DNA of 64,000 nucleotides, taken from contig CM000436.1 in NCBI GenBank assembly GCA_000165345.1, forward strand, positions 960,001 to 1,024,000, read 5' to 3'. The notes under the pieces are model-generated. The model ran no database searches. It had not been told where the DNA came from and saw only the letters and a list, made by a program, of their open reading frames with translations. A program made the position numbers and the translations under genes. Positions 23,693 through 37,499 of this stretch are shown piece by piece. Position 1 is the stretch's first letter; every line of letters starts with the position of its first letter.

Positions 23693-26236
23693 CTAACAGG
23701 AAGCAACTGTTATATTGAGTAATTCCCTAAGATTCTGAATTGAATTGAATGTTGCTTCTTTGAATAAATTAGAATCAGAGCAAGACTCTGCTGAGTTCAA
23801 GACGGCCTCAAGACTTGACTTTATATTGGAAGCAACGTTAATCAACTGAAGCCTCTTTTTGTTTTGACAGCTTTGAGGGTCTACGTAGACTTGTTCGACT
23901 AAAGTTAGTTCTTCAGCCTTTTCCCTTGATCTCTTGACAGTTTCTGAAGGGAGGCCAGAAAGTTCTGCAACATCAACTCCTAAAGACTTGTCTGTGAATC
24001 CTTTTTCAACTTTGTATAAGAACTTTAGAACTCCACTTCCTTGTTTAGAAAGAGATAGTGCTTTAGATGTAGATGCCGTTACTCTTAAATTAGTTACATT
24101 TGGGGTACTAGATGCAAGCGAACTGAGCTCATGAAAATGGGTAGCAAAAAGAGTATAACATTTTTTCTCACTAACAAGATAACTTGCAATGGACCATGCG
24201 AGGCCAAATCCATCAAATGTTGATGTACCACGCCCTAGTTCATCAACTATAACCAAAGTTCGCTCCGTTGCACTCCTTAGAATTGCAGACGCCTCAATCA
24301 TTTCAGCAAAGAAGGTAGAAATTCCAAGTATTTGCGCATCAGAAGCACCAACTCTACACATTAATTGATCCATTATAGGTATCTGTGCTTCTTGAGCAGG
24401 AACAAAGCATCCTATTTGGGCCAGTAAGGAACAAATAGCAATTTGGCGAATATAAGTTGATTTTCCACCCATATTTGGGCCTGTTATGATACTCAATAAA
24501 TTCCCATGACGGTGAAGTTCAACATCATTCGCAACAAACTGGCCAGTAGTAGAAACTGTTCCTTGGGCTTCAATTAATGGGTGACGAAGTTCCTTGCAGT
24601 AAAATCGGCAATTACAATTAGTGGATCCATCCTCCGAGATTTTCATTTCAGTTGCCAAATTGCATTTCCCATTGACCATTTTAGGCCTTACAAATGGAAT
24701 CTGGGCGCATAAAGACGTCATTGAAAAGCTCAAAAGAACGTCAATTGACCCCAAAATACCTGCAAGCCGAGAAACCAAAGACCAATAAGTAGAAGCTACA
24801 GATAAAGCCTTAACAAGTACTTGTTCTTGCTCATTATTATATTCTTTTATAACTTTTTCTTCACGATCTGAAAGGTCCATTAGCTCGTTTGTCCTAAAAA
24901 TATAATCATTCTTGTTTATTCTAACCTGTTTAAATCGCTTCTTATCTTGGAAATATTCTATGTCCCTCCTAGTGACTCTAAAACAAAGACTTGTATCAGC
25001 TCCTTCTCCTCTTATAACTCTAACAGCCTCTCTAGACCCTTCATTATATCCACGTTCTCTGCAGAGATATGCATCCAAATCTTTCCTGTGGGCCTCGATT
25101 TTACGTTGTATCCTATTCTTCTCTTCTGAAAGCTTTTCAAGTTCTGGGGTAAAATATGGAATAATCAAGTAGTTACCTTTGTCCGCTTCTTCAAGATCAA
25201 TAGTCTTTTCAACTAATCGAATATAGTCTTTAAACCTGTTCAATGTTGACTCCAATGGTACAAGAATTAGGTCATATACTGACTGAACAAAACTTGGAGA
25301 AGAATCTGAGTTCTTATTTTCCTCCAATGCATCCTTTATATCAGAAAAAATATTTCCTGATTGCATTACACTATCATACAACTTGACCATATCCTCTAAA
25401 CCGAACTTTGGTTCTCTCTCAGATTTTGAGCTTTCAGAAGCCATTAAAGAAGCAAATGTCCTAAATCGGACAGCTATTTGATCTAAATCGCAAACTTTAC
25501 GCATATGAATACCATACAATTTCTGACGTAAGAAGTCATTTTTACAAAAGAATTCTACAACATCTTGGCGTGAAATGATCTGTTTCTCATCAATAAGAGG
25601 TTGTCTTAGCCATTGCTCAAGTCTTCTAGCACCAACCTTAGTTCTAGTTTTGTTCAGCAACCCAAATAAATTTGTTGATGCTTTACTACTTTCTCCCTTG
25701 CTTGGAAAGATCCTTAATGATTGAACACAGGCAGAGTCCATTCTCATGAAAGTTTTAGTTACAAGAAACTTAATTTCACACTGAGAGTTATTCTCTTTAG
25801 ACTGGACTAACTGAAAATGTCTTATTAAGTTAAGCAATGAATGTCTAATCAATTCACTTTCTAACTCCTTCCCATAACTGCTGCATGACCTCCTTAATAG
25901 AGGAGAAATTATGACTTCAAAATCTTCAACAGTAGATGATTTTGGGAACTCGATTTCTTCGCATGTCCAATTATTGTTCATATCTAGTAAATTACGTAAA
26001 CGCTTTAAGCTTAAACAATCTTTCTGAACTGAGTAAACTACATTACTTGGCTGAGTCCTTACAAGTAAAGACTCTAATTCAGAAAGTTGTTCATTATCTT
26101 CTATATTTGCTACTGAAATTAATCCACTGTTTACATCAAAAAGAGAAATCCCAAGTTTTGGTTCAGTAATTGTCTGTTTTGCAACAATTGAGCAGAAAAT
26201 TCGAGTTTTAAAATTTATATCAATTGTGTTGTTCAT
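23693..26236 (-). CDS. MSH2: DNA mismatch repair protein MutS homologue, MSH2-like, 847 aa
   Basis: ITGPNMGGKSTYIRQIAICSLLAQIGCFVPA (Walker A) and DELGRGTSTFDGFGLAWSI are both present, as is the MutS domain order. The match to MSH2 is closest around the P-loop. Confidence 0.8.
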   Translation of the reverse strand: MNNTIDINFKTRIFCSIVAKQTITEPKLGISLFDVNSGLISVANIEDNEQLSELESLLVRTQPSNVVYSVQKDCLSLKRLRNLLDMNNNWTCEEIEFPKSSTVEDFEVIISPLLRRSCSSYGKELESELIRHSLLNLIRHFQLVQSKENNSQCEIKFLVTKTFMRMDSACVQSLRIFPSKGESSKASTNLFGLLNKTRTKVGARRLEQWLRQPLIDEKQIISRQDVVEFFCKNDFLRQKLYGIHMRKVCDLDQIAVRFRTFASLMASESSKSEREPKFGLEDMVKLYDSVMQSGNIFSDIKDALEENKNSDSSPSFVQSVYDLILVPLESTLNRFKDYIRLVEKTIDLEEADKGNYLIIPYFTPELEKLSEEKNRIQRKIEAHRKDLDAYLCRERGYNEGSREAVRVIRGEGADTSLCFRVTRRDIEYFQDKKRFKQVRINKNDYIFRTNELMDLSDREEKVIKEYNNEQEQVLVKALSVASTYWSLVSRLAGILGSIDVLLSFSMTSLCAQIPFVRPKMVNGKCNLATEMKISEDGSTNCNCRFYCKELRHPLIEAQGTVSTTGQFVANDVELHRHGNLLSIITGPNMGGKSTYIRQIAICSLLAQIGCFVPAQEAQIPIMDQLMCRVGASDAQILGISTFFAEMIEASAILRSATERTLVIVDELGRGTSTFDGFGLAWSIASYLVSEKKCYTLFATHFHELSSLASSTPNVTNLRVTASTSKALSLSKQGSGVLKFLYKVEKGFTDKSLGVDVAELSGLPSETVKRSREKAEELTLVEQVYVDPQSCQNKKRLQLINVASNIKSSLEAVLNSAESCSDSNLFKEATFNSIQNLRELLNITVASC

Positions 26237-26732: not shown

Positions 26733-27935
26733 TTATTGTATTTCAATATTAGGCTTCCACCATATTACATTAATACAAGCTAAAAGTAATTAGCATTCAC
26801 ATATATTTAAGGTGGTTAATGAACATACCTGAAGCAAAAAAGGCCTTTTTAGGGTTGAATGCAATGCATTTCGGTTGTCCAACATGACCAGTGAGATTAA
26901 CTATATGTTTTGCAGTAGTAGTTGACCAAATAGAGATAGTGGAATCCTGTAAACCATGGATTACGTACTGGGAATCACTTGAAAATACTGGCCTAGTTTC
27001 AGATTTTATTATATGGTCTAAATATAGAATAATAAATAACAGTAATATAATGAAATAGTTAAATGAGGCCATTATCCTCAATTAAATTAAGAACTTACTT
27101 GGAGATTTATTTACAGTTTTATATTCTTGGAATAGCTCTCCTCTGAATGAACTAATGGTGAAGATTTTTCCTAAATTGGTTTTAACTAATATAAGTCTGC
27201 CATCAGGACTGAATGTAATATGATCTATGTAATTTTTCTTTCCAATATGACTTGAAAGGTTAAAGGTATCAAAAGGAGAGTATGTTTTAGAATCATACAT
27301 AGTGATAATATGATCATCAGTTGCAACAGCAAAAGTTCGTCCTTCAGGGTCAAAAGCTGAGATTGGAGTTTTATTTTTTGTGGATTGAACTGCCAATGGG
27401 GTCTCAAGCTTAAAATTATATATAGATACTTTTGAATCATTTGTTGAAACAATGAATAAATCTTTGTTGGGATGCACAGAAATCCCATTATATGGCACGA
27501 CACTAAAAAGAGTTGAATAAAATGAATTAGAAATAATGATTTCCAAACATAAAGAAATATCTTAAATAAATTAACTTACCCAGATGAAAGTTTAGTAGCC
27601 CTAATATATCTATTTTCTTGAATATCCCATAGTCTGATAGTGGCATCACCATCTGTTTTGTTTGAAGCTACAAGGCATTGCTTGTTACTATGAGCGAATT
27701 TTATTGCATCCATACTATTCTTCCTAGAGTGGTGAATCCTGAAGATATCCCCAGAAGAAATGGTGTACACTCTTAATGTGTCGCTTTCACAAATGAGTAA
27801 TGAGTCGCCATCTTCACTCCAATCCATATTTGAAATAGGCGTGATCGCATCTTTAAATACACGGCATGCTTTAAATTTGGTAATCAAATCATCATTCAAA
27901 ACAGTTCTAGATTGTTCCAACATAATGATGAACAA
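26733..27935 (-). CDS. SWD2: WDR82/Swd2 WD40 protein, 4 exons (27580..27935, 27099..27502, 26829..27017, 26733..26779), 331 aa
   Basis: Three adjacent track ORFs join through GTAAGT, GTAAGT and GTATGT donors and pyrimidine-AG acceptors. The spliced C-terminus FNPKKAFFASACINVIWWKP matches WDR82 [35 protein letters not shown] matches WDR82 PVCSFDPEGLIFAAG. Confidence 0.7.
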
Positions 27936-28020: not shown

Positions 28021-28045
28021 TTTGGCGCCAAAATGTTTATTTGGG
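28021..28045. promoter_or_regulatory. E2F-like site TTTGGCGCCAAAATGTTTATTTGGG, 90 bp upstream of the WDR82 start
   Basis: Direct reading. Confidence 0.5.
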
Positions 28046-28172: not shown

Positions 28173-29031
28173 CTACTCGTCTGATATAGAATCATCTTCG
28201 CGATAATATAGTAGAGGGGCATGGTAAATATCTCTACGTATGATTTCTCCAATATCGATATCATCAGAGATATTTTCTGAAAAAAAGTCGAAAAATGATA
28301 AAACACTATTTTTGTATTCCTCTTCATTTTCTTCAGTATCAATAAATTTCTTTTCAATAATTGATCTTGGGGACTCTTTCTTCCAGTTAATTTTGGTTAC
28401 TTCGTTTACAATTTCTTGGTTATCTTTAAAGATAATATGCTTGACTAAAATATTTGGCTCCATAAATTCAGATACTGCCTCATCAAATATTAATTTAATT
28501 TTATAGGACCCTTCATTATCTAGATTATCTTCTAACTCTATATCTTTTAAATATTCAAGAATATCAAAATCCTCAGGATGCATGTTATCTTGGAAAACGG
28601 GATGTCTGGAAATAGTGTCAGCCCAAAATTTGGGTATTTTTTCAATTATAGCTTTTCTTTCATCAAAAATTGGTTTTTTCTTCTCATCAAATTGTCTCTG
28701 AATAATCATTTGCTCCTTAGCACATTCACTGTCTAGCTCCATTAATCTGGTATCAACTAATAATTTTCATTATTACTCTCAAATCAAAAGCTAGAAAACT
28801 TACCTTCTTCAAGCTTTGAAATTAATTCCTGTTTTTCATCTGAATTTGTCTTATCCCTAAGATATAATTCAAAAACAATAACAGAGTTAAAGTTACCGTA
28901 AATACTGTTCAAAACTAAAAAATTCAGCCACACTTATTACTGCATTGCAATAATAGTGTACTGAAGTAAATTTAAAATTACCCCATATTAGAAGTCTCAG
29001 CAGTTTCTAAATCTAACTTTTGCTTTTTCAT
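28173..29031 (-). CDS. SET: SET/TAF-I-type NAP-family histone chaperone, 3 exons (28982..29031, 28804..28856, 28173..28756)
   Basis: IPKFWADTISRHPVFQD matches SET IPNFWVTTFVNHP. The 53-nt middle exon with its GTAAGT donor encodes DKTNSDEKQELISKLEE(V)DTRLMELDSECAKEQ, which continues the alignment to the SET dimerisation helix. The first exon MKKQKLDLETAETSNMG is less certain. Confidence 0.6.
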
Positions 29032-29358
29032 CTTTATTATATCACAGCTTCTATAGATTAAAATATGTTGCTTTATAATTCAATCTTTAGAGTAATTATT
29101 ATAACCGCCTTCGTTTTTTTTAGTAACTTTCATATTATAGTCAAATTTTGATTAATTGCCCGCCCGATTGTGCCGCCACTTTATATGGTTTTACACGACA
29201 TGTACATGTCATTTTTGGCCTGAAGTGTGATTGAATAATAATTTTTACTAAAAACAAAAATAGATAGAAATTGAGATAATTTTTTCAAAAGTAATACATG
29301 GAATCTTGTGGGAGTATCACAGAAGAGTGTATTTGAGAATTATACGTCTAAAGAAAGA

Positions 29359-31122
29359 ATGGCTTCTCTCAATGATATTAGTAAAGGTTCACAGGGGAGC
29401 CAGTTAATAGATTTAAATGGCTCTGAGAAGAGAAATGACTATATGGACTACATGTCACATTTGCAAAGTAGTGCTGCTCAATTGAGATATGAAAATAGTG
29501 TTTTAAAGAATGATAATGCAAATTTAGTATCAAAGTTGGACAGAGCTGTGAGTAAGAGTAGAAATGGAGTAGAAATACCAGAAAATGCAACAACAGCAGA
29601 AATTGCGGAGGCATTTGAAAAGTTGAATGATGAAAACTGCAGATTAAAGAGAGAAATGGAACGTTTGATACGATCAAATACTAGATATAGGGTTGCAATG
29701 CAAAATAGAGATCCTAGCTTAATTCCCTCTGAAGAACAAGATAAAAGTTTTTTTAACTCTGATGACTCTGGAGGAAGGTTATGCCAGTGTGAATATATAC
29801 TTAATGAAATTCTAGAAGCAGTTTCTTATAAGTTAGAAACTTATGAAAAGCATATCTGGGAACATAGATTAGCTACTTTAACTAGTGAAAGAGATGAAAT
29901 TGCTGTCCAGAATATTTCACTAGTAGATAGGCTAGCTGAAATTGAAGCAATTATTAAAGTAGATCATGTTCTTGCTGAAAGATTTAATGTTCCTCTAGAA
30001 GGTTGTGATGAAAAGAATCAAATATTAACTTTACACCGTAAGTTGGGCTTTGCATTGGATGTAAACCAGCAGCTCGAAAGAAGATTAGCTTTTGAAACGC
30101 AGCTTTCAAGATCTTGGCAAAGTAATATGCATACAATTGTTAGTGAGGTAAGTTTTTCCTAAAAAGTTTGCCATTTGCTAACTTTATTGTGACCAATTTC
30201 TAATTTCCCGCCACCCCACATTGCAATTATTACATGCATTTGCAAATTATTTGCACATTTTATAGTTAAGGCAATATATGTATGAACTTGGATCTATTAT
30301 AAAACAGTCAAATGGTTGTGAGATATTTAGAACTGTAAATTCTTCAGGTAAGTTACATATATGCAAACCAAATCCTTATAAAATGAAAATTATTTAACTG
30401 AAATTCTTTTTTTTTCAGACCAAACTGGTAATAAAGGCTCTGGAAGTATTGTGGAAGCTCCTGGTTACAGAAAAGCTGATAGAGAAAGTTTAAAGTTATT
30501 AAGGCTGGCAAAACAAAGAATTGAGGCTGATACAAAGAGATTAGAAACATGTAATAAAAGAATTATAGAATTAGAAAATGAGGTTGCATCATTAAGGGTA
30601 CGTAATCATTCATATATATATAGGGAAGGAGCAATAAACCATGATGCTGCAAGCAGAGGAATCATGAACGAAATTCTACCTCCACCAAAAATTTCAGCTC
30701 AGGATTTGACTGGAGGTCTAGTCAGATCATTTTCAAAAGCTCAAAATGACAATAATCTATTTTCTGCTAATAAAGGAGTACTCAATGTTAAATTGGATAA
30801 AGTTGATGAATCTGAAGATACTGGTAATAATACTCATGTCAAACAGGAAGTACTTCAATCCGAGGTTAATAAAAATTCAAGTAGCATTTCTCAAGAAAAA
30901 AACAAAAGTTCTAATGAAATTCATGATCTTGAGGAAGGAAATAGTACTCATAGAAGTCATCATAGTAGTCATCATAGTAGCCATCATAATACTCACCGTT
31001 CTCATACTCAAAGTCATTCTTCAACTCATAGAAGCCATCAATCTGGATCGTCCAATGATCATCATGGCCCTAAATCATCAAAATCTCATTCATCATCGTC
31101 ACATTCTAAGAAAGATAGATAG
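29359..31122 (+). CDS. coiled-coil protein with His/Ser-rich C-terminus, 3 exons (29359..30147, 30266..30347, 30419..31122), about 524 aa
   Basis: Track ORF 1 ends in GAG|GTAAGT. The exon from 30266 to 30347 is 82 nt, flanked by TTTTATAG and GTAAGT, and open in only one frame. It joins in phase to ORF 2, which has no ATG of its own (the track start is GTG). The first ATG of exon 1 is at 29359. Confidence 0.5.
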
Positions 31123-31466
31123 ATTATTAATATACTAATCATCTAATGCTTGCAGTGGTTATTTTCTGATTATGGAAAATAATATGAAATAATAAATTTA
31201 TTTCATATTAAATTTCTGGTTTTGCTCTATATATTACTAATTGCTATAACTTTATTATTAACATTAATTTTTTGTTTAACTTTTGTTCTTTTCAGGTTCA
31301 ATCAGTAAAAAATAAAAATTCAGTTTTTGCTACAGGATCAGTTACTACATCATGCTCAATATCATCCACAGAAAACGGTAAGTTGAAAAACACATTTAAT
31401 ATAAAAATTTATTATTATTAATTATATTAATTCATTATCAAATTTAATATAGGTATAAGATACAGT

Positions 31467-37499
<6,033 letters not shown>

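What the first reader, a model, noticed from the sequence alone, without database searches (positions are those of the whole stretch)
26733..27935. WDR82/Swd2 gene is split into four exons that the ORF track shows as three unrelated ORFs
The minus-strand ORFs 27576-27935, 27082-27546 and 26797-27081 each end exactly at a canonical donor (GTAAGT, GTAAGT, GTATGT). Splicing with introns 27503-27579, 27018-27098 and 26780-26828 gives a continuous 331-aa protein. Its junction-spanning residues match WDR82. The final 47-nt exon yields ...FFASACINVIWWKPNIEIQ, against human ...[17 protein letters not shown]. Three introns in one gene is notable in a genome where most genes here are intronless.
Basis: partly seen in the sequence, partly recalled or inferred. 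Interest (0 to 1): 0.55.

Follow-up and report, generated by a model that had tools for sequence, protein, structure and literature searches.

The report
Four-exon WDR82/Swd2 gene of Cryptosporidium parvum

Summary
On the minus strand, exons 27923-27580, 27502-27099, 27017-26829 and 26779-26733 are joined by three GT-AG introns of 77, 81 and 49 nt. They give a 984-nt reading frame.

- **Length:** the product is 327 aa from the first ATG.
- **Already annotated:** the window is C. parvum chromosome 8. The spliced product is identical to the deposited C. parvum protein CPHLJ_8g3960 / CPCDC_8g3960.
- **Introns conserved:** all three introns keep position and phase in C. hominis, C. canis, C. bovis, C. 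ryanae and C. serpentis. Their lengths and sequences drift.
- **Last exon:** the 47-nt exon encodes a conserved ACI/VN-L/V-IWW strand that includes a tryptophan invariant across the WDR82 family.
- **Identity:** the nearest relatives outside the genus are proteins named WDR82 or COMPASS SWD2, at 30% identity end to end.

Many older public models are wrong: the last exon is missed, splice sites are shifted, or the gene is split. No transcript data could be reached.

This is ordinary and already known, and at most a small annotation fix. Four exons is within the normal range, and the neighbouring NAP gene also has two introns.

The parts
27580..27923 (-). Exon 1 (344 nt): ATG 27923-27921 to the second base of codon 115. 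Encodes residues 1-114 plus two bases of G115.
   Evidence: Identical to the N-terminal part of P0065. The TU502 fragment model XP_668046.1 (115 aa) is this exon alone.
27503..27579 (-). Intron 1: 77 nt, GTAAGT...TTTTTAG, phase 2, 18% G+C, stops in all frames.
   Evidence: Same position and phase in five other Cryptosporidium species, with lengths of 59-105 nt. Intron identity to C. parvum is 45-58% in the four distant species, against 68-78% for exon 1.
27099..27502 (-). Exon 2 (404 nt): residues 115 (third base) to 249, plus the first base of codon 250.
27018..27098 (-). Intron 2: 81 nt, GTAAGT...ATTTAG, phase 1, 21% G+C.
   Evidence: Position and phase conserved in five species, lengths 58-89 nt. 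The old Iowa II model would need a GT..AA intron of 93 nt here.
26829..27017 (-). Exon 3 (189 nt): residues 250-312, plus the first base of codon 313.
26780..26828 (-). Intron 3: 49 nt, GTATGT...CTTTTAG, phase 1, 27% G+C. Left unspliced in many public models, which then end ...ASGMFINHLKYM.
   Evidence: Position and phase conserved in five species, lengths 44-85 nt. The read-through tails are unrelated between species, with product lengths of 315-330 aa.
26733..26779 (-). Exon 4 (47 nt including stop TAA 26735-26733): completes A313 and encodes CINVIWWKPNIEIQ. This is the last beta-strand of the propeller (residues 317-322 in the model).
   Evidence: The codon alignment shows silent third-position changes over a conserved A-C-I/V-N-L/V-I-W-W in six species. 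W320 is invariant, and A313, C314 and P322 nearly invariant, among 25 WDR82-family sequences. Strand 317-322 is predicted, with mean pLDDT 95 for residues 311-320.

Best explanation
This is the C. parvum chromosome-8 gene for the WDR82/Swd2 orthologue, locus 8g3960 in recent annotations. It is a nuclear protein-coding gene with four exons and three short spliceosomal GT-AG introns.

**Product.** The mRNA encodes a 327-aa protein that is one seven-bladed WD40 beta-propeller and nothing else. The 47-nt last exon supplies the final beta-strand (VIWWKP). From the order of strands in the model and the usual WD40 architecture, I infer that this strand sits in the last blade next to the N-terminal strand that closes the ring. 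Skipping that splice would give a propeller with an incomplete last blade.

**Function (inferred from orthologues, not shown here).** The protein probably acts as a non-enzymatic scaffold in two settings: Set1/COMPASS H3K4 methyltransferase, and a PP1 phosphatase/termination module (yeast APT Swd2-Ref2-Glc7; human PNUTS-Tox4-WDR82-PP1).
For: **Shown**
- Splice sites, phases and an open 984-nt frame.
- 100% identity of the product to the deposited 327-aa C. parvum protein, and of the DNA to three C. parvum assemblies with the same 1191-nt gene span.
- All three introns keep position and phase (114/phase 2, 249/phase 1, about 312/phase 1) and GT-AG ends in C. hominis, canis, bovis, ryanae and serpentis, while their lengths vary.
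- In the four distant species, exons are 63-79% identical at the DNA level, introns 45-62%, and the 3' flank 53-57%.
- The exon-4 peptide is conserved with silent codon changes, while the read-through tails are not conserved.
- The nearest non-Cryptosporidium relatives are named WDR82/SWD2, at 30% identity end to end.
- The 25-sequence alignment has 38 invariant columns, including W320.
- The AlphaFold model has pLDDT 90.7 and pTM 0.89, with 27 strands including 317-322. It superposes on seven-bladed propellers at TM 0.8.
- The best natural full-length match in the PDB is S. pombe SPAC824.04. From my own knowledge this is Swd22, the WDR82 paralogue in the 3'-end processing complex.
- NAP - WD40 - MutS gene order is conserved in all the species examined.

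**Background**
- Swd2/WDR82 in the phosphatase module and the PNUTS-PP1 complex: PMC7614891.
Against: - I could reach no transcript evidence. The Logan and ENA cluster members are unspliced single-exon ORF calls.
- The evidence-based IOWA-ATCC annotation (QOY40162.1, 322 aa) leaves intron 3 unspliced. So do the C. hominis, C. meleagridis and C. tyzzeri models.
- Identity to WDR82 is only about 30%.
- The fold search cannot separate WDR82 from WDR5.
- The reverse best-hit test against the whole C. parvum proteome was not possible from one window.
- No biochemical data exist for this protein.
Confidence: 0.9

Rival explanations
1. The gene has only two introns. The 49-nt stretch is not spliced, and the protein ends ...FFASGMFINHLKYM (322 aa), as in the IOWA-ATCC, C. 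hominis, C. meleagridis and C. tyzzeri models.
For: Five deposited models use this structure. One of them comes from an annotation whose introns are described as 100% supported by RNA-seq (PMC8744675). That statement says annotated introns are real. It does not say that none are missing.
Against: - The read-through tail differs in sequence and length in every lineage: GMFINHLKYM, GMFIHHLKYI, GMFI in the C. ubiquitum model, GKL in C. ryanae, and GKFSNLFFINKIDRIYI in C. bovis.
- The spliced tail ACI/VN-L/V-IWW is conserved in six species with silent codon changes.
- The spliced tail matches the family-wide ASAC...FW.P motif, including the invariant W320.
- Intron 3 has GT-AG ends at the same phase-1 site in all six species, with lengths of 44-85 nt.
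- The spliced tail forms a confident beta-strand.
Confidence: 0.05
2. The gene model is right, but the protein is a generic or lineage-specific WD40 propeller rather than a functional WDR82/Swd2. For example, it might work with other partners or be closer to WDR5-type proteins.
For: - Identity to WDR82 is only about 30%.
- Pfam gives only generic WD40/propeller matches, and its library returned no WDR82-specific family.
- The top fold matches are WDR5.
- The reverse best hit was not tested.
Against: - The best hits outside the genus are WDR82/SWD2 proteins over 88-97% of the query length.
- WDR5 is only 18% identical.
- The alignment is collinear from N to C terminus, with 38 invariant columns and the characteristic C-terminal motif.
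- S. pombe Swd22 is the only natural protein in the PDB that aligns in one stretch over residues 13-321.
Confidence: 0.07
3. The original Iowa II model (XP_001388439.1, 316 aa), with different borders for introns 1 and 2, is the true structure.
For: It is a RefSeq record.
Against: - Reproducing that protein from this DNA needs introns of 83 nt (GT..GT or TA..TG) and 93 nt (GT..AA, AG..TA or AA..AT). None of these has GT-AG ends.
- It deletes VV116-117 and NHII250-253. The corresponding residues are present in every other species' best model.
Confidence: 0.01

Closest known systems
C. parvum gene 8g3960 (CPHLJ_8g3960 / CPCDC_8g3960; KAL5367139.1, WKS79658.1, WRK34160.1)
   Same: Identical 327-aa product, identical 1191-nt gene span, and identical DNA over the gene plus 300 nt on each side. 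This is the same gene.
   Different: Nothing. Older records for the same locus differ only in the model: XP_001388439.1 (316 aa), QOY40162.1 (322 aa), and the C. hominis TU502 fragments of 115 and 72 aa.
Animal WDR82 / yeast Swd2 (the WD40 subunit of Set1/COMPASS and of the PNUTS-PP1 / APT termination module)
   Same: A single seven-bladed WD40 propeller of about 313-330 aa. The alignment is collinear end to end at about 27-32% identity, with 38 invariant columns and a shared C-terminal ASAC..(F/W)W.P motif.
   Different: - Divergent sequence.
- A two-residue insertion after K89 and a longer loop around residues 245-262, which has lower model confidence.
- WW instead of FW in the last strand.
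- Partners and function are untested in Cryptosporidium.
- Gene structure differs. Drosophila's coding sequence is intronless and Lingula's has 8 introns. Only one Lingula intron lies within a codon of a C. parvum intron, and in the same phase.
S. pombe SPAC824.04 (PDB 9scd chain D; from my own knowledge Swd22, the WDR82 paralogue in the cleavage and polyadenylation factor)
   Same: The best natural full-length match among solved structures: residues 13-321 against 5-333, E = 3.7e-15. It is also the best natural match for the animal WDR82 P0006.
   Different: A distant relative. The paralogue-specific role cannot be transferred.
WDR5
   Same: The same seven-bladed propeller fold, TM-score about 0.8. 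WDR5 is also a COMPASS subunit.
   Different: Only 18% identity. It is not among the full-length best sequence hits, so it is a different family.

Membership tests
WDR82 / Swd2 | A single seven-bladed WD40 beta-propeller of about 310-330 aa with no other domain | tested here: met
   Only WD40/propeller Pfam matches, spanning residues 30-313. The AlphaFold model has pLDDT 90.7 with 27 strands. TM-score is 0.8 to seven-bladed propellers.
WDR82 / Swd2 | The nearest full-length sequence relatives outside the genus are WDR82/Swd2 orthologues | tested here: met
   P0006 and P0007 (313 aa) and P0008 (287 aa): 30% identity over 88-97% of the query. Residues 8-322 align with 2-309. The close relatives of P0006 are named WDR82 or COMPASS component SWD2.
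WDR82 / Swd2 | Family-conserved residues along the whole length, including the C-terminal ASAC..FW.P motif | tested here: met
   38 invariant columns among 25 sequences. W320 is invariant, and A313, C314 and P322 are at least 90% conserved.
WDR82 / Swd2 | Reciprocal best hit: no other protein of the same genome is closer to WDR82 | not tested
   Only a 64-kb window was available. The list of WDR82 hits shows only the top 120 of 1155.
WDR82 / Swd2 | Physical membership of Set1/COMPASS and/or a PP1-PNUTS (APT) complex, and binding to the phosphorylated RNA polymerase II tail | not testable with these tools
   Needs biochemistry. Background is from PMC7614891 and general knowledge.
Spliceosomal GT-AG introns | GT...AG ends with a consensus donor; removal restores one open frame | tested here: met
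   GTAAGT, GTAAGT and GTATGT donors with TAG acceptors. The frame is open over 984 nt, and each intron has stops in all frames.
Spliceosomal GT-AG introns | Position and phase conserved between species while length and sequence drift | tested here: met
   Six species share the same sites and phases. Lengths are 59-105, 58-89 and 44-85 nt. Introns are less conserved than exons.
Spliceosomal GT-AG introns | Spliced junctions seen in transcripts | not testable with these tools
   No RNA-seq or cDNA was reachable. The cluster members from read assemblies are unspliced ORF fragments, and a full-text search for cgd8_3960 found nothing.
WDR5 | Close sequence relationship to WDR5 orthologues | tested here: not met
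   18% identity in the structural alignment. In the sequence search WDR5 matches only residues 204-313.

The most novel reading that the evidence does not exclude
The 49-nt third intron might be retained in a regulated way. The parasite would then make both a complete propeller (327 aa) and a 322-aa form lacking the last strand. That could explain why evidence-based annotations left the intron unspliced. More prosaically, the terminal micro-exon is missed or mis-modelled in most deposited Cryptosporidium models: C. hominis, C. meleagridis, C. tyzzeri, C. ubiquitum, C. canis, C. serpentis and two C. parvum records.
Probability: 0.06. Interest if true: 0.3.

Novelty: already known. Interest (0 to 1): 0.1.

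Why it matters
It matters little beyond annotation hygiene. The correct four-exon model already exists in recent C. parvum records.

The practical point is that several widely used models of the same gene are wrong. This includes those of C. hominis, C. meleagridis, C. tyzzeri, C. ubiquitum, C. canis, C. serpentis and older C. parvum records. Some lack the 47-nt last exon and so truncate the final strand of the propeller. Others use non-canonical borders or split the gene.

Anyone tagging the C terminus, modelling the protein or building orthologue sets should use the 327-aa model. The case also shows that ORF-only views of Cryptosporidium break intron-bearing genes into apparently unrelated ORFs.

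Tried and rejected
- **Literature:** a full-text search for cgd8_3960 gave no hits. 'Cryptosporidium' with 'WDR82' gave nothing relevant to this gene.
- **Transcript evidence:** I looked for spliced transcripts among read-assembly members of the protein cluster. They are unspliced single-exon ORF calls.
- **Solved structures by sequence:** this PDB copy returned no human WDR82 or yeast Swd2 chain among its matches. Only S. pombe SPAC824.04 aligns full length.
- **Fold search:** the PDB search confirms a seven-bladed propeller, but WDR5 entries dominate it, so it cannot decide the family.
- **AlphaFold database:** this library was not available.
- **Splice search:** my first automatic search missed the last intron in C. 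bovis and C. ryanae, because the look-ahead ran into the stop codon. It also missed the stop-free, in-frame intron 2 of C. serpentis. A targeted search fixed both.
- **Ancient introns:** only one Lingula intron lies within one codon, and in the same phase, of C. parvum intron 1. The terminal intron differs by four codons and in phase. Drosophila's coding sequence has no introns. One or two species is too few to conclude anything.
- **Rejected models:** three unrelated ORFs or a pseudogene, and the Iowa II borders, which need non-GT-AG introns.

Full report
**What is in the sequence.** The region lies in DNA of 30% G+C. On the minus strand the ORF list shows three ORFs, 27576-27935, 27082-27546 and 26797-27081.
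- Intron 1, 27579-27503: 77 nt, GTAAGT...TAG.
- Intron 2, 27098-27018: 81 nt, GTAAGT...TAG.
- Intron 3, 26828-26780: 49 nt, GTATGT...TAG.

Their phases are 2, 1 and 1. Each has stops in all three frames. Intron G+C is 18-27%, against 26-37% in the exons. Removing them leaves a 984-nt open frame that ends at TAA 26735-26733.

- The product is 327 aa from the first ATG (27923).
- Only the first ORF ends inside its donor. ORF 2 runs 5 codons past its donor and ORF 3 runs 10 codons past.

**Identity of the locus.** A protein search found a 322-aa C. hominis protein that is 100% identical over 96% of the query. Its 90% cluster holds several competing models of the same gene:
- A 327-aa C. parvum protein, CPHLJ_8g3960 / CPCDC_8g3960 (KAL5367139.1, WKS79658.1, WRK34160.1), identical to the spliced product along its whole length.
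- 322-aa models that read through intron 3 and end ...ASGMFINHLKYM or similar: C. parvum IOWA-ATCC QOY40162.1, C. hominis, C. meleagridis and C. tyzzeri.
- A 316-aa C. ubiquitum model that also reads through intron 3 but stops earlier, at ...ASGMFI.
- A 316-aa Iowa II RefSeq model with other borders.
- C. hominis TU502 fragments of 115 and 72 aa.

The 327-aa protein is annotated in three C. parvum chromosome-8 assemblies with a gene span of 1191 nt, the same as window 26733-27923. The window is identical to all three over the gene plus 300 nt on each side.

**Are the introns real?** No transcripts were reachable, so I used comparative evidence. I fetched the orthologous loci of C. hominis, C. 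canis, C. bovis, C. ryanae and C. serpentis. In each I searched for the GT-AG introns that best restore a protein alignable to the C. parvum product.
- All six species have three introns at the same places and phases: after codon 114 phase 2, after codon 249 phase 1, and after codon 311-313 phase 1.
- Donors are GTAAGT, GTATGT or GTAGGT. Acceptors all end in AG: TAG in most cases, CAG in two, and AAG in one.
- Lengths vary freely: 59-105, 58-89 and 44-85 nt.
- Against the four distant species, exon DNA is 63-79% identical. Introns are 45-62% identical and the 3' flank 53-57%.
- The old Iowa II model can be reproduced from this DNA only with non-GT-AG introns: 83 nt GT..GT and 93 nt GT..AA.

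**The disputed last exon.** Most public models miss it, so it needs separate support.
- The spliced tail is conserved: ACINVIWWKPNIEIQ in C. parvum and C. hominis, ACINLIWWKPDIKL in C. canis, ACINLIWWRLEI in C. bovis and C. ryanae, and ACVNLIWWQPKLDIN in C. serpentis.
- The codons show silent third-position changes, for example GCT/GCA/GCC, TGT/TGC and ATA/ATC/ATT.
- The read-through tails are unrelated between species, and the retained-intron products range from 315 to 330 aa.
- In a 25-sequence alignment with WDR82 proteins, W320 is invariant. A313, C314 and P322 are at least 90% conserved.
- An AlphaFold model built from that alignment is confident (pLDDT 90.7, pTM 0.89). It places residues 317-322 in a beta-strand, and the 311-320 block has mean pLDDT 95.

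From the order of strands and the usual WD40 architecture, I infer that this strand belongs to the last blade, beside the N-terminal strand 17-23 that closes the ring. I could not inspect coordinates, so this step is inference.

**What the protein is.** Pfam gives only WD40/propeller matches. The best hits outside Cryptosporidium are P0006-P0008, at 30% identity over 88-97% of the query. The alignment to P0006 runs 8-322 against 2-309. A search with P0006 shows that its close relatives are named 'WD repeat-containing protein 82' or 'COMPASS component SWD2' in many animals. One source already uses the WDR82 name for the C. hominis protein.

Among solved structures, the only natural protein matching in one stretch over residues 13-321 is S. 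pombe SPAC824.04. From my own knowledge this is Swd22, the WDR82 paralogue of the cleavage and polyadenylation factor. It is also the best natural match of animal WDR82. The fold search returns seven-bladed propellers at TM 0.8, led by WDR5 at 18% identity. This confirms the fold but not the family.

A reverse best-hit test against the full proteome was not possible. Function is therefore inferred from orthologues: a scaffold subunit of Set1/COMPASS and of the PP1 termination module (PMC7614891).

**How notable is it?** In the RNA-seq-based reannotation of C. parvum, 10.8% of genes have introns. Intron-bearing genes have 2-10 exons, with a mean of 2.6. Introns average 99 nt and 22% G+C (PMC4637869). 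A four-exon gene with introns of 49-81 nt at 18-27% G+C is uncommon but normal.

The upstream neighbour, a NAP-family gene, also has two introns. GTAAGTT is enriched in the window, with 17 copies against 8.25 expected, and there is another cluster at 30.0-31.4 kb.

**Verdict.** The feature is an ordinary, already annotated gene. Its only residual value is as a correction to the many deposited models that miss the terminal micro-exon or use wrong borders. The remaining gap is direct transcript evidence for the 49-nt intron.

Noticed in passing
window 28173-29031 (minus strand): The upstream NAP-family gene (PF00956; NAP/SET-type) is also split. The ORF 28173-28742 is only its last exon. The ATG is at 29031, with GT-AG introns at 28981-28857 and 28803-28757. 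This gives a 228-aa product whose ...EEVDTRLMELD... matches C. ryanae ...EEVDSNLMELD.... Public models disagree, at 190, 220, 228 and 229 aa. In C. ryanae the gene is wrongly fused to the WDR82 gene (P0003, 562 aa).
   Followed up: partly
window 28023-28030 (also 6007, 19578, 52073, 53546): The palindrome TGGCGCCA, here within TTTGGCGCCAAA, lies about 100 nt upstream of the WDR82 start codon. It occurs 5 times in the window against 0.07 expected. From memory it resembles the E2F-type upstream motif reported for Cryptosporidium genes. I did not test this.
   Followed up: partly
window 29308-31500 (plus strand): GTAAGTT donors cluster at 30038, 30148, 30348 and 31378. The one at 30148 lies a few codons before the end of ORF 29308-30162, and ORF 30451-31122 follows on the same strand. 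This is probably another multi-intron gene, encoding a coiled-coil, His/Ser-rich protein. There may also be an upstream exon of the 2010-aa gene at 31467-37499; its counterpart at the C. bovis and C. ryanae loci carries only faint or weak cNMP-binding Pfam hits.
   Followed up: no
window 23693-26236 (minus strand) and loci L001-L011: Downstream lies an 847-aa MutS-family gene (MutS_III and MutS_V domains). The gene order NAP - WDR82 - MutS is conserved in C. hominis, canis, bovis, ryanae and serpentis.
   Followed up: partly
L004 (C. canis), L002 (C. serpentis), L008 (C. hominis): Deposited orthologue models look wrong. C. canis (265 aa) stops within intron 2. C. serpentis (315 aa) ends ...ASAPYY instead of ...ASACVNLIWWQPKLDIN. 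C. hominis (322 aa) retains intron 3. Conserved GT-AG junctions give models of 326, 326 and 327 aa. In C. canis, introns 1 and 2 are G+C-rich (58% and 56%), unlike in the other species.
   Followed up: partly
L012 (Lingula anatina WDR82), L013 (Drosophila): Lingula WDR82 has 8 introns. One, phase 2 after residue 108, lies within one codon of C. parvum intron 1 and in the same phase. Its last intron also leaves a micro-exon (AFWLPQMDE), but it sits 4 codons downstream of the C. parvum site and in another phase. The Drosophila coding sequence has no introns.
   Followed up: partly
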